From Pecten maximus (Eukaryota), in the NCBI RefSeq assembly GCF_902652985.1, contig NC_047029.1, positions 13,640,001-13,704,000 on the forward strand: 64,000 nt of DNA, read 5' to 3'. The notes below the pieces were generated by a model. It saw only the letters and a program-made list of their open reading frames with translations. It was not told the origin of the DNA and ran no database searches. Positions 12,455 through 52,459 of this stretch are shown one piece after another. Within the stretch, counting starts at the first letter, position 1. Each line of letters starts with the position of its first letter. The position numbers and the translations under genes were made by a program.

Positions 12455-15022
12455 ATGGAGAAACCAGAGAACATTTTCCTCAAAAAGAGTTTTGTAGCCA
12501 TTACCGGAGCCAGTAGAGGAATTGGTAGATGCATGGCCCTGAAGTTTGCGGTCAAGTTCCCTCCAAATTCCGTCTTGGTACTGATGGCGAGGAATATGAT
12601 GGCTTTGGAAAGCGTCAGGACGGATTTGCAAGCAAGGGCTCCCAATATAACGGTATTAGTTCAACAGTATGATCAAGGAAAAACTGATGAAGGATATTTT
12701 AATGGAATATTTGATAGTTTGCTCACTGAAAGCAAACTTTCAAAGGGTGAGTTTGAACAGGTAATGCTTGTTCATAACTGTGCTTCAGCTGGTGACAAAG
12801 AAAAGACCGCGCTTCAATTGTGTGACGCCGACTGTGTGCGGTCTTACTTTGACATAAATCTCTCCGGCATGATTCTACTCAACACGAGTTTCTTTACAAC
12901 ATTTTGTGATCAATCTTTGTCTCGAGTCGTGGTCAACATAACGTCAGGGGCTTCCAGGATTCCATTTTCGTCTCTCCACCTGTATTGCTCAGGTACATAT
13001 TATTGTTTATTTCCGTTATCCATTATTACTAGCATGTGATCCTAAACTTACTAGTGCTACCTCACTTAATATACAACTGGTTACTAAAAATCAACATGGT
13101 CTAACACTTGAAAGTCGGAAGTGGCGTTAGTGGTGGTTAGATGATCGGTTTTGGGTGATGGGGTAGTGTGAGAGAGGTGACCTTCGATTCACTTTTAATT
13201 TAAGTGCACATATGCTTCACTAACGAATTCTGGTTGAGAATTCTTAAATATCAACATATTTTAATCTTTTTGTTTTGTGACAATGATTTAAAAGTGAGGA
13301 AATGCACAAAAAGTGTTCAAGCTAACGGACGATGCATCGACTGTGCAAATTAACCTAACTTAGAGTGGTTTTTGAAATGGGTAATCGTATTGGTCGTCAC
13401 CTCTGTAAACATTGCTCATTATATTGGTTGACCATTCAAACTATCCGCTATAGAAATATTCTACTTCCGTTCTACAGTTGATGCATCTTTGATTACATTT
13501 GAGAATTAGGTGCGATTGAACTGAAGATCCAAATGAATTGAAGCTCATCCCACATTTTCACCTTTTCAAGCATTACACCTATTTGTGATACATTGGAGTA
13601 ATGTTATTTACTATCAATTATAATCAGATGCAGACGCCTTTGCTGAATTATACTACTAAAGGCACCTTGCTGGAACCTTATCTAATCATATTTCACTGCT
13701 GACTATGAGCGAACCAGTCGTCCCACTCCCAAAATGCTGCGTCTGAAGCAGGCGTACTAACTACCGATTTTGTAGATTCGAGTGATGCCTCTTTCAGGGG
13801 ACAGATACAAAACACTCATCAAAAGAGCGAACGCTCTGCTCCAGGCCAAAAGTGAGGCAGTGTCAAGGCAAACATGAGAAAGTATAAAGTTGTGTAGAAG
13901 GAAGCCGAAATATAATATTCCAGATTTAATCGTCTCTTACGAAAAATACAACGAGACAGCATTTACAATTCTTACGATTGACTGACAGGAGATTCATTAC
14001 AACATTATTACTTTGTGTACATATCAAACTATATTCTGTCTTATTTACGATTTCAGGCAAAGCTGCCCGTGATATGTTTTTCCGAGTTCTTTCTGCCGAA
14101 GAACCATCTATTCGGGTTCTGACATACGCCCCAGGTTGGGTTGACACAGACATGTTGCGAGATCTAGAAGCAAATTCATTCTCAACTCCAATCCGTAAAT
14201 TGGTAAATGGTAAGCCCGTTTGTTAATGAATCTGTTTATTGTTCAACCTGTGGCAACCTGTGTTATATATTCTTTTACATCTAATGATTTTATGTTCGAA
14301 TAATGTTTAAATATCCGTGCTGTATGTGACCGTATTTAAATTGTCACCTTATTATTCCAATTTGCGAACGGATCATAGAAATACAGACACACGTTAAGGT
14401 GTATGGAATGGTCTTACTTGGCTGATTGTGGAGGCTGCTACTTGATATAGCAAGGAGAAAATTGGTTAGTAGCAAGTTGACACCTCGTGAAGAGAAAAGC
14501 TCTGCTTAAATCGAGTGCCACTATGTTTTATTGTATTGCAAATGATTTTTGTTGCAGAAATCGTCCAATGCAGTGAGGTTAAGAAAAATCGTGTGATGCC
14601 TCATATAAATTATCTATTTTCACTTAGTGTTCTATCCTCAATAGTTGTGGGTGTTTCCCTTAATTTCCAATCACAAATGACCCTAACTTATGTTGGTACC
14701 CCCCCCCCCCCCCCCCCCCCCCCCCAACGACTGTGTATCTTCTTAGCACCCGTTTCTATATGACCTTTACCTTTTTGACGCCCCGGTTTAATTTAGCCCT
14801 CTGTTGCTATCCAGCTAGGAAATTTGATTGTTCAGACGTTTATGAAATAAATAATTACTAATTTATTTCCCAGGCCTGCGTGAGAACGGCGAAATAGTGG
14901 CACCGGAGGAATCTGTTGCCGTCCTTGAACGGGTACTGGAGGACAACGCGTTCGAAAATGCTGATCACGTGGACAACTATGGTCAGACAGCTCAGCCATA
15001 TATTGATAATTTTATTAATTGA
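12455..15022 (+). CDS. SPR: sepiapterin reductase-like SDR, copy 1 (279 aa); exons 12455-12992, 14057-14209, 14874-15022
   Basis: [57 protein letters not shown] introns, both phase 1, open frame. Confidence 0.92.
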
Positions 15023-49800: not shown

Positions 49801-52459
49801 AAAAATGGCGTCAAATTTGAAGCTGAATTTAAGTATCAGAGGCAATAGCAACATTTTATAAAATCTGTTAATAAGAAACGATGTTGCTTATATTCAGTGG
49901 ACTTTATGGAATAATATTGTGTATTTGATCTGATTTTTAGCTCTCCTGGTCCGGTGAGCTTATGCCATACCGTAGCGTCCTGCGTCCGTCGTCCGTCCGT
50001 ACGTCAACAATTGACTTAAGAAATAATTAACGATGATTCGTGTATTGTTGCAGGATATACAACGAGGACGAGGATATTTTGCAATTAAATTAATAGCGAA
50101 GGCCGCAGACAATACACGATTCAAAGTTGATTATTTCTATTCTACCATGTACTGTTTAGTTCTGAGATCGCCTCTTTCTAATAGAAAAACAGCAAAGAAA
50201 CCCCGAGAAAACCATGAAATTTATTTCTTGAGTATTGCATTATTTGCTGATGAAATATACAGGCAATACAGTACTACGATCAAGAGCATCTATCATATGG
50301 CATTGATTTTGAAAATTAAAAAAAAAATGATAAAAGAAAAGAAAAAAAAAGAAAAAAAGAAAAAAGGGGAGCCTCCGTAGGATTCGAACTCGCGTCGTGA
50401 TAAAATTTTATTGAAAGACACCCATTGGCCACTCGGCTATAATAACCTTTTATAAAACGGGTGAATATTAGATATATAAAATTGTAACAGCCGTGACTCA
50501 CGAGCGTGTATTATTGGCACGAGCGTTGGTTATTGGAAAATAATACATGGTTTTAAACCAATCAAAACTGGCGTTGCATAGCAAACATGGTAGAATTCTT
50601 CATAACTGCTGATCGGAATTGAACGAAATTTGAGTGGTAGGATCAGTATGGGGTGGGGACTAGAAATTGTACAAATGGTGGGGCTGAGGGGCGGGGCCAA
50701 AAAGAGCCAATTTGGTTTAATTGATATAAACCTACTTCTTCTCTGGAACTAAGCATTAGATATCGCTCATATTTGTCTGGTAACATCCTTATGGGGTAAG
50801 GATTCAAAATTGCACAAATGATGGGCTGATCCCACGGGGGCCTAAGGGTTCGGCCTAAAAGGGGTCATTTTGGCTAAATTGATATAAACGACTTCTCTGA
50901 AACTGAGCAATGGATATCACTCATATTTGACTGGTAGCATTCTTAAATGGTGGGGCAGACCCCCTATGGACCTGATGGTTGGGGCCAAAAGGAGTTATTT
51001 TTTGATTAATTGATATAAACTACTTCTTCTCTAAAACTAAGCAATGGATAACGTTAATATTTGTCTGGTAGCATTGTTAAGGGGTGGGGATTCAAAATTG
51101 TACATTTGGTGAGGCTGATCCCCCGGTGGCTGACGAGTGGGGCCAAAAGGGGCCAATTTGGCTAAATTGATAAAAATATTTAATTATCTGGAAGAAAACG
51201 ATGAATATCAATCATATTTGACTGGTAGCATCCCTATGGATGGGGATTCAAAAAACTATAAATGGTCAAGCTATCCCAAGGGGACTGAGGGGTTAGTCAA
51301 AGGGTTCAATTCGGCTAAAGATATATGTACGCTTTTATCTGTGAAACCATTCAGATCCCCATCCCATAGTCATATATAGCCTTGCTTGGCATCAAGAGAT
51401 TATCGCACAATCATGACGTGAAAATAGGCCCAGGGTTCTTTCACCATCCCAAGGGACTATTAGTTTCATTAAATACAATCATGTTGAATCTTGACTTTGT
51501 TTCTAGGTTCTATCTTTGAAGCAGTTGAGATATCCATACTATAGTTATATATAATCATACCTAAACTATTAAAGCTGTTAGCAAATGGAACATGAACATT
51601 ATTTTGATGTTTTATTTGCTCAAATAAACAAGGTGAGCGATGCAGACACTCTGAGCCTCTTGTTTAGTGCCAAATGTTCCTGTATGTCGAGGAACCAAGC
51701 AAACTACATGTATCTATAACATGGCAACTTGAGTAAGAATATAAGGTAAAATGAATATCTATCTAATATAGTTATTGTCTAGATTTTTGTTGTTAAGGCT
51801 CTGTTAGACAGAAAGTGCTTTATGTGCATCGTTAGTTTTAATATGTTCAAAGATGAGGTATATAAGATTAACCTTCTGATTAGGTAGGCACTTTTCTGAC
51901 ACAAAAAAAGTATTATCTTACCCGCACAGTATAGATGCATGTATCTCACAGGAGTTGAAGCAGCTGCTGAAGACATATTGACCACCACCCGTGATTTCTT
52001 GGAATCAGAGAATGTCTGGAAGAAGCTGGTGTTGAGTAGAATCATCCCAATCAGGTTGATGTCGAAGGCATTCCTCACTTCCACAGAGTCGCACAATTCT
52101 AAAGTTTTCTTCGACAGGCCAATGACAGCAGCACAATTATGCACGATCATGAATTGTTGGAAGTCATTTTCCGATAGCTTGTTTCTCAATAAAATTTCGT
52201 TGAATATGTCATTGAAATACCCTTTCTCTACAATGCCCTGATCATATTGCCGTACCAGAACAGTGACATTTGGTATCTTAGACACTATTTCTGACTTGAC
52301 ATTTTCCAATGCCTGCTCATTCCTTGCCATAAGTACAAAGACAGTATTGGCAGGGAACTTGGCCGCAAACTGTAGTGCTATACATCTTCCTAATCCTTTG
52401 CTGGCGCCGGTTATGGCTACAAATGTCTTCTTAAGGAAAATATTCTGTTGTTGCTCCAT
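40870..52459 (-). CDS. SPR: sepiapterin reductase-like SDR, copy 6 (269 aa); exons 52459-51922, 45395-45243, 40988-40870
   Basis: TGASKGLG, VVNMSS, LYCAG|KAARDMYMRVL, FAPGSSDTDL, FENAVCLESDKIF*. Exon sizes 538/153/119 as in copy 5. An in-frame ATG at 52483 is a possible alternative start. Confidence 0.88.
42270..42410 (+). repeat. 27-bp tandem repeat (5 units)
   Basis: TCTACGTCTAA(C/G)TGACCACCCTGACAA repeated. Confidence 0.95.
42885..43535 (-). mobile_element. HINE-type non-autonomous element fragment
   Basis: Ends in GACAGACGGACGACGGACGCCG (reverse complement of the GTCC microsatellite head) and has internal repeated units (AATTTCAT.AAAATCCATTCAGGC..GACTAGTAGCG). Confidence 0.6.
43822..45103. 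repeat. AGATATCT-phased repeat arms around a unique core; probable non-autonomous DNA element
   Basis: The palindrome AGATATCT recurs every ~21-22 bp at 43822-44358 and 44745-45070, with a unique core between them. Confidence 0.8.
46586..46800 (+). mobile_element. tRNA-derived SINE
   Basis: A box TGGCACAGTGG and B box GGTTCGATTCC, followed by the body CCCGACCACGTGGGTTTTCC..CTCCGGTTTTCTCCCACA. Other copies at 35945 and 60160. Confidence 0.82.
49389..49607 (+). mobile_element. full-length tRNA-derived SINE flanked by ~195-bp direct repeats
   Basis: A box TGGCCGAGTGG, B box GTTCGAAAC and tail AGGACGTTAAAAAAAAC. Near-identical copy at 63519-63721. Confidence 0.9.
49933..51665 (+). mobile_element. 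HINE/Pearl-like Helentron-associated element with internal tandem repeats
   Basis: TTTTTAGCTCTCCTGG..GGTGAGC head, (GTCC)n, tandem units at ~50600-51330, 3' AGGTGAGCGA..CCTCTTGTTT. Contains a nested element at 50022-50596. Confidence 0.8.
50022..50596. mobile_element. nested hairpin + sub-terminal IR element
   Basis: Imperfect hairpin at 50022-50135. ATTCTACCATGT (50139) and ACATGGTAGAAT (50585) are exact reverse complements. Confidence 0.65.

What the first reader, a model, noticed from the sequence alone, without database searches (positions are those of the whole stretch)
12455..52459. Six-copy sepiapterin-reductase-like array with conserved catalytic core but rewired substrate pocket
Seen: all complete copies keep TGAS(R/K)GxG, the catalytic Ser and YxxxK, but vary at three pocket regions. 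The Ser-to-Tyr loop reads GASRIPFSS / GTSKVPSPS / GASYIYVPS / GASWTAVPS / ISGSAPMTC / AAASTPVRY. The PG(PL)DTDM position reads WV, GV, AV, AV, VV, SS. The NNAG motif region is HNCA+SAG/TIG/STG/TAT/AVI. Established: SPR is typically single-copy and conserved for BH4 synthesis, and it also has carbonyl/quinone reductase activity. Inference: this is a neofunctionalised NADPH carbonyl-reductase repertoire (xenobiotic or algal-metabolite detoxification, or pterin pigments) rather than housekeeping SPR. This is the best candidate for an undescribed system in the window.
Basis: partly seen in the sequence, partly recalled or inferred. Interest (0 to 1): 0.75.

Follow-up and report, generated by a model that had tools for sequence, protein, structure and literature searches.

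The report
Scallop reductase array with rewired pockets
Scallops keep one ordinary sepiapterin reductase gene but have also repeatedly copied a spin-off version whose catalytic core is intact while its substrate pocket differs from copy to copy, likely giving them a toolkit of enzymes that neutralise carbonyl-bearing compounds from their algal diet.

Summary
The window has five intact three-exon sepiapterin-reductase (SPR)-like genes and one 5'-truncated copy whose front lies replaced by a DIRS-type retrotransposon fragment. They belong to a larger cluster: about 130 kb, 7 intact genes, 3 broken, 2 fragments. The genome holds 12 intact non-canonical copies plus a separate canonical SPR about 6 Mb away. 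Named hits place it in the scallop Pecten maximus; three other scallops carry the same clade.

All intact copies keep Ser-Tyr-Lys and the NADPH site (dN/dS 0.09-0.15). Positions almost invariant in ordinary SPRs (P200, D257, L158) become hypervariable. Pocket identity among array paralogs is 0.34-0.51 against 0.68-0.72 elsewhere; single-copy scallop orthologs show 0.76-1.0 against 0.75-0.80. Positive selection is only suggestive, and gene conversion is detected. Copies A, B and D are spliced in RNA assemblies; E and F were not tested.

Best reading: NADPH carbonyl/quinone reductases of the detoxification programme (0.6). No substrate is shown. No paper describing the expansion was found in ten searches, and the scan had not noted it before.

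The parts
12455..15022 (+). Copy A (clade IIa), 279 aa; exons 12455-12992, 14057-14209, 14874-15022
   Evidence: Spliced ORF intact. RNA contigs cover 12758-12993 and join exon 2 to 3 in X1, X2. The NCBI model P0028 (197 aa) stops exon 1 early, apparently at an internal GT at 12747, but RNA covers part of the skipped stretch.
15931..19028 (+). Copy B (clade IIa), 281 aa; exons 15931-16468, 18083-18235, 18874-19028
   Evidence: Identical to P0001. Intron 1 joined in X5; intron 2 in X1, X2, X5. AF2 pLDDT 96.3, TM 0.82-0.85 to SPR.
20893..21256 (-). DIRS-order (tyrosine-recombinase) retrotransposon RT/RNase H fragment abutting the broken 5' end of copy C
   Evidence: 202 genomic matches; the best relative L056 carries RVT_1 and Phage_integrase.
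21257..24015 (+). Copy C (clade IIa), 5'-truncated probable pseudogene; exons 21257-21413, 22759-22911, 23867-24015
   Evidence: First 127 codons absent, no AG acceptor upstream. No splice joint in 4 runs. dN/dS against D is 1.07 over 140 codons.
24841..29071 (+). Copy D (clade IIa), 279 aa; exons 24841-25378, 27853-28005, 28923-29071; Asp257 replaced by Tyr
   Evidence: Identical to P0005. Intron 2 joined in X1, X2, X5.
33926..38683 (-). Copy E (clade IIb), 269 aa; exons 38683-38146, 36523-36371, 34044-33926; Asp257 replaced by Glu
   Evidence: Identical to P0016. Expression not tested.
40870..52459 (-). Copy F (clade IIb), 269 aa; exons 52459-51922, 45395-45243, 40988-40870; Asp257 to Glu, Met205 to Leu
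   Evidence: Identical over 269 aa to P0018. Expression not tested.

Best explanation
These genes are a scallop birth-and-death family derived from sepiapterin reductase that keeps the NADPH-binding fold and the Ser-Tyr-Lys triad but has lost the fixed pterin-recognition pocket, so they likely act as NADPH-dependent carbonyl/dicarbonyl/quinone reductases for diverse diet-derived compounds while a separate canonical gene likely makes BH4. Mechanism, inferred from SDR chemistry: NADPH binds at TGASRG, Arg42 and Asp69; Tyr170 and Ser157 polarise a substrate C=O; Lys174 lowers the Tyr pKa; hydride transfer gives an alcohol that phase II enzymes could conjugate. Copy-specific residues at 104, 158-164, 200, 206-222 and 257 would set the preferred substrate. 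Shown: gene structure, separate canonical gene, clade, pocket-focused divergence, core conservation, splicing of A, B and D. Inferred: activity, substrate class, tissue and detoxifying role.
For: Canonical SPR retained and conserved 1:1 in four scallops. Non-canonical clade 100/99, clade II 100/99, with species-specific clusters of paralogs. P200 (31 of 32), D257 (31 of 32), H255, D260 and L158 (28 of 32) are near-invariant in canonical SPRs from insects to mammals. They are the five sites with the largest entropy gain in clade II, although clade II is more similar overall (60% against 40%). At 12 pocket sites, identity is 0.51 and 0.34 in array clades against 0.72 and 0.68 elsewhere; in single-copy scallop orthologs it is 0.92, 0.76 and 1.0 against 0.80, 0.75 and 0.77. 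Cofactor/catalytic codons have dN/dS 0.15 and 0.09. Pocket codons have 1.99 and 1.37 against 0.39 and 0.31, exceeded by 0 of 5000 random sets. SPR natively reduces quinones, vicinal dicarbonyls, aldehydes and ketones, and D257H abolishes sepiapterin reduction with little effect on ROS production (PMC7520308 passages). In Chlamys farreri, four SPR-annotated genes, three with one scaffold prefix (CF62689.1/.2/.6), rise by log2FC 6.9-10.7 at day 15 of Alexandrium feeding, alongside CYP2, FMO, SULT, GST, carbonyl reductase and organic-ion transporters (PMC9324277 Table S1).
Against: No enzyme assay exists. Site models are weak: M1a/M2a p=0.18 (7 sequences) and 0.73 (10); M7/M8 p=0.04 and 0.03; M8a/M8 p=0.02 and 0.13. 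With its own synonymous rate, the pocket's dN/dS falls to 0.75 and does not differ from 1; the broader loop set gives 0.82-0.95. PHI p is 0.004 or less, so gene conversion may inflate the signal. Relaxation alone could therefore explain the pocket. A, B and several IIa copies keep Asp257 and Met205, so pterin activity is not excluded. The Chlamys genes could not be aligned to this clade (no sequences). That study had n=3 and uncorrected p, and the day-15 'gill' list looks kidney-like to me, so carry-over of kidney tissue may mimic induction. The pocket list is recalled, not computed from coordinates, and was typed after the variable sites had been seen.
Confidence: 0.6

Rival explanations
1. 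Relaxed redundancy: copies arise by unequal crossing-over and are homogenised by gene conversion. The pocket drifts because the canonical gene does the pterin job, and the copies share one generic activity (dosage or quinone redox cycling) rather than a repertoire.
For: Pocket dN/dS is not above 1 when given its own synonymous rate; recombination is detected. M1a/M2a is not significant. 3 broken genes and 2 fragments lie in the cluster. Paralogs cluster by species.
Against: The rest of the protein stays purified (pairwise dN/dS 0.25-0.44 among intact copies within a subclade). Both subclades persist in four genera. Pocket codons change much faster than the rest, often by multi-base radical swaps (P200 to W, G, A, V, S).
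Confidence: 0.22
2. Pterin specialists: the copies reduce pterins or related heterocycles in a new orientation (pigments, or a stereo-variant biopterin), as Chlorobium tepidum SPR does through a remodelled pocket.
For: CT-SPR makes L-threo-BH4 by a swivelled binding mode with changed pocket residues (PMC7520308). An acid is kept at 257 in most copies: D or E in 23 of the clade II rows.
Against: One new pterin product would favour a fixed new pocket, as seen in clade I orthologs, not copy-to-copy variation. No pigment link was found in the paper searches.
Confidence: 0.12
3. Toxin-specific role: some copies act on paralytic shellfish toxin analogues, whose guanidinium could sit on Asp/Glu257 and whose hydrated ketone could be reduced.
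For: Co-rise with toxin load in Chlamys. Scallops transform these toxins enzymatically, and the review describes a reductive activity only at homogenate level (PMC7290730 passages). The structural analogy is my inference.
Against: The passages read describe no carbonyl reduction of these toxins by bivalves. Mussels also accumulate them, yet only canonical-type SPR was found in Mytilus. The kidney carry-over caveat applies.
Confidence: 0.06

Closest known systems
Sepiapterin reductase (EC 1.1.1.153; TIGR01500; PDB 1SEP, 1Z6Z, 6I6T)
   Same: Fold (TM 0.82-0.85, top 11 Foldseek hits), 36-39% identity, Rossmann motif, Arg42, Asp69, Ser157/Tyr170/Lys174, and the same three-exon layout as the scallop canonical gene.
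   Different: Below the equivalog cut-off; NNAG/HNAG becomes HNCA, PGP becomes PG-x, the C-terminal GxHxD motif is altered, and the pocket varies among 10 intact paralogs.
Chlorobium tepidum L-threo-forming SPR (PDB 2BD0, as described in PMC7520308)
   Same: Precedent that changing the SPR pocket changes substrate orientation and product.
   Different: A single bacterial gene with one fixed new pocket; not aligned here.
Benzil/diketone reductases of the SPR-related SDR group (NCBIfam PRK06924; yeast Irc24/Nre1; KRED1-Pglu, PDB 6YC8)
   Same: Second- or third-best family for the copies (84-105 bits) and next-best listed fold match. Tandem yeast paralogs reduce diketones and prefer NADPH (PMC10436073 passages).
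   Different: Scores are far below the cut-off (258); 20-24% identity. These are microbial and not of the animal SPR lineage.
Expanded bivalve detoxification families (GST, ABC, SOD, GPx, HSP70, as listed in the introduction of PMC9324277)
   Same: Multi-gene families that respond to toxic-alga feeding in scallops.
   Different: SPR-like genes were not analysed as a family in that paper; they are mentioned once as 'SPR'.

Membership tests
Classical SDR (PF00106) | Rossmann TGxxxGxG, catalytic Ser and YxxxK | tested here: met
   met in A, B, D, E, F. C lacks the Rossmann part.
Classical SDR, NADPH-preferring | Basic residue after beta-2 (Arg42 equivalent) | tested here: met
   MARN in all five intact window copies. 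The reading as NADPH preference rests on recalled SDR rules.
SPR lineage (homology) | Best sequence, profile and fold match is SPR; nests among molluscan SPRs | tested here: met
Sepiapterin reductase equivalog (TIGR01500) | Score at or above 206.55 bits | tested here: not met
   7 of 7 non-canonical proteins score 174.9-196.6; 4 of 4 canonical controls score 211.6-404.7.
Sepiapterin reductase equivalog | Asp257 pterin anchor | tested here: inconclusive
   Asp in A and B, Tyr in C and D, Glu in E and F.
Sepiapterin reductase equivalog | Pro200 (PGP) and Leu158, near-invariant in canonical SPR | tested here: not met
   0 of 6 window copies have P200 or L158.
Sepiapterin reductase equivalog | Orthology to the genome's BH4-pathway SPR | tested here: not met
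   The canonical ortholog is a different locus.
Sepiapterin reductase equivalog | Reduces sepiapterin to L-erythro-dihydrobiopterin | not testable with these tools
   Needs an enzyme assay.
Benzil reductase (PRK06924) | Score at or above 258 bits | tested here: not met
   84-105 bits.
Adaptive multigene repertoire | Site-model positive selection robust to recombination | tested here: inconclusive

The most novel reading that the evidence does not exclude
Scallops have turned a neurotransmitter-cofactor enzyme into a diversifying, kidney-expressed family of phase I detoxification reductases, some of which act on harmful-algal metabolites such as paralytic shellfish toxin analogues, supplying missing enzymes behind scallop toxin handling.
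Probability: 0.12. Interest if true: 0.75.

Novelty: new variant of a known kind. Interest (0 to 1): 0.45.

Why it matters
SPR is known as a conserved BH4-pathway enzyme and pain-drug target. A family in which nature has varied exactly the substrate pocket on a fixed core is a ready-made test of how a side activity (carbonyl/quinone reduction) becomes a main one, and a source of natural ketoreductase variants. For shellfish biology it names concrete candidate enzymes for the handling of algal metabolites. It also warns that 'SPR up-regulated' in scallop transcriptomes need not mean BH4 synthesis.

Tried and rejected
Haplotype or assembly artefact: rejected. Intact copies differ at dS 0.13 or more, introns are 74-87% alike, and arrays recur in three other genera. 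C against D is closest (dS 0.06).

Copy A lacking catalytic residues (NCBI model): RNA contigs cover 12758-12993 of the skipped part.

Origin from the scallop canonical gene: not resolved. The free tree does not join them, but the AU test does not reject it (p=0.44). The canonical and clade Ia genes lie about 36 kb apart here and share a contig length in Mizuhopecten and Ylistrum.

Members outside scallops: none named. In the best 150 of the profile search only 4 representatives belong to the clade. The HNC motif occurs in 3 of 277 other proteins: one unnamed clade member and two with canonical-looking Ser-to-Tyr loops. No oyster protein was among the listed hits, so absence there is untested.

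Flanking genes: 78 of 155 long ORFs were scanned; clear hits were retroelement domains only. Expression of E and F: left open. RNA run X6 showed no exon joints. Papers not held: PMC1170322, PMC3696693, PMC4352594, PMC6682008. Supplements of PMC5700196 (12 files), PMC10295635 and PMC9416634 had no 'sepiapterin'. No complex was folded: a dimer would pass by likeness to solved SPR. Earlier scan notes had nothing relevant.
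Full report
Observation. Six SPR-like loci lie in the window, four on + (A-D) and two on - (E, F). Each has three exons and phase-1 GT-AG introns. Five copies give intact 269-281 aa proteins. B, D and E are identical to proteins that NCBI names 'sepiapterin reductase-like [Pecten maximus]', and F matches one over its 269 residues. Copy C lacks its first 127 codons. A fragment of a 202-match retrotransposon family abuts the break; its best relative carries reverse transcriptase and tyrosine recombinase domains.

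Beyond the window. Searches of the own genome gave 18 exon-1 and 16 exon-2 matches. The cluster at C15:13.61-13.74 Mb holds 7 intact genes, 3 broken genes and 2 fragments. Two more intact copies sit at C15:7.94 Mb, one on C7, and two more distant ones at C15:7.54 Mb and on C16. A canonical SPR lies at C15:7.579 Mb with HNAG, PGP and the Asp257 motif. It has a one-base frameshift in exon 1, which I take for an assembly error because its three scallop orthologs are full length; this was not checked with reads.

Phylogeny. In an 85-row quick tree and a 48-row careful tree (representatives only), the canonical scallop genes form a 1:1 group beside Mytilus and Tegillarca SPR (85/95). The non-canonical genes form a separate clade (100/99). 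Clade I has two near single-copy ortholog groups. Clade II (100/99) splits into IIa (A-D type) and IIb (E/F type); both are present in Pecten, Mizuhopecten (10 proteins plus a fragment on one 389 kb contig), Argopecten and Ylistrum, and paralogs mostly cluster by species. Whether the clade arose from the scallop canonical gene is unresolved (AU p=0.44). No named member outside scallops was found. Solemya velum has its own four-gene set.

Family tests. The AlphaFold model of B (pLDDT 96.3) matches SPR in the top 11 PDB hits (TM 0.82-0.85). The SPR equivalog TIGR01500 is the best family, but 7 of 7 non-canonical proteins fall under its cut-off while 4 of 4 canonical controls pass.

Pocket. Numbering follows gibbon SPR P0140, which reproduces the human Ser157, Tyr170 and Asp257 (PMC7520308, passages) and Lys174 (PMC13249053, passages). 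Across 32 canonical and 31 clade II proteins and 260 sites, the largest entropy gains are at D260, P200, D257, L158 and H255. For 12 recalled ligand-contact positions, identity among array paralogs is 0.51 (IIa) and 0.34 (IIb) against 0.72 and 0.68 elsewhere. Single-copy orthologs from the same four scallops show 0.92, 0.76 and 1.0 against 0.80, 0.75 and 0.77. That list is from memory, could not be checked against coordinates or the primary structure papers (not held), and was typed, so the test is not blind.

Selection. Pairwise dN/dS among intact copies of a subclade is 0.25-0.44. My own implementation of site models (C left out) gave M1a/M2a not significant, M7/M8 p=0.04 (7 IIa sequences) and 0.03 (10 sequences), and M8a/M8 p=0.02 and 0.13. 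Top candidate sites include the equivalents of 104, 161, 162, 164, 200, 218, 222 and 260. With a shared synonymous rate the 12 pocket codons have dN/dS 1.99 (p=0.001 against 1) in IIa and 1.37 (p=0.08) in all ten; cofactor codons have 0.15 and 0.09. With their own synonymous rate the pocket value is 0.75, and PHI indicates recombination (p at most 0.004). Pocket-focused fast evolution on a purified core is therefore shown; adaptive diversification is suggested, not established.

Expression. Contigs of four RNA or presumed RNA runs from three studies were laid on A-D. They join introns of A (two runs, one study), B and D (three runs, two studies). No joint was seen for C, and one run showed none. 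Some joints cross between copies, as expected from mis-assembled paralogs. Tissue is unknown, and E and F remain untested. In Chlamys farreri gill, four genes annotated as sepiapterin reductase, three sharing a scaffold prefix, rise by log2FC 6.9-10.7 at day 15 of Alexandrium feeding (PMC9324277: part 1 of the text, passages, and Table S1 rows). The top day-15 rows are CYP2, FMO, SULT, GST, GGT, dipeptidase and organic-ion transporters.

Mechanism. SPR already reduces quinones, vicinal dicarbonyls, aldehydes and ketones, and D257H removes sepiapterin reduction with little effect on ROS production (PMC7520308 passages). The simplest account is that duplication freed this side activity: the core still delivers hydride from NADPH to a carbonyl, and the varied pocket sets substrate range. 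I put this at 0.6, relaxed redundancy at 0.22, pterin specialisation at 0.12 and a toxin-specific role at 0.06.

Literature. Ten full-text searches were run; four of them were aimed at an SPR expansion in scallops or bivalves. None listed a description of this family, but searches showed only the top 25-30 of many papers. Subscription journals and bioRxiv supplements are not covered. PMC7290730, PMC10436073, PMC10213231 and PMC13249053 were read as passages; PMC5700196, PMC10295635 and PMC9416634 only as supplement searches.

Verdict. A real, apparently undescribed, scallop-wide expansion of a known enzyme with a specifically remodelled pocket: a new variant of a known kind, interest 0.45.

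Noticed in passing
window 1937-7248 (+): Near-complete non-LTR retrotransposon: ORF1 with zinc knuckle plus GDSL/SGNH esterase domain; ORF2 endonuclease and RT in two overlapping frames at about 4167-4200.
   Followed up: partly
window 54798-57609 (-): HECT-domain exon (54801-55574, PF00632) and an upstream ORF without a Pfam hit; probably exons of a HECT ligase-like gene.
   Followed up: partly
window 43818-45077: Satellite-like repeat arranged in inverted blocks inside intron 2 of copy F.
   Followed up: no
G000:C15:7578837-7578931 (L051): The only canonical SPR has a one-base frameshift in exon 1 in this assembly; NCBI lists it as partial (P0049).
   Followed up: partly
G000:C16:23220372-23222800 (L054): Clade Ib single-copy gene in four scallops with an invariant new pocket and Pro in place of Arg42, hinting at a changed cofactor preference and a fixed new function.
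   Followed up: partly
L038:4079-8471: Ty3/gypsy-like element with protease, RT, RNase H and integrase domains about 0.9 kb from the broken copy at C15:13.633 Mb.
   Followed up: no
P0034, P0038, P0040, P0042: Independent four-gene SPR set in Solemya velum; two copies have lost P200 and D257, a possible convergence.
   Followed up: partly
window 12746-12748: Internal GT donor in copy A exon 1, apparently used by the NCBI model; it would remove the catalytic Ser and Tyr if spliced there.
   Followed up: partly
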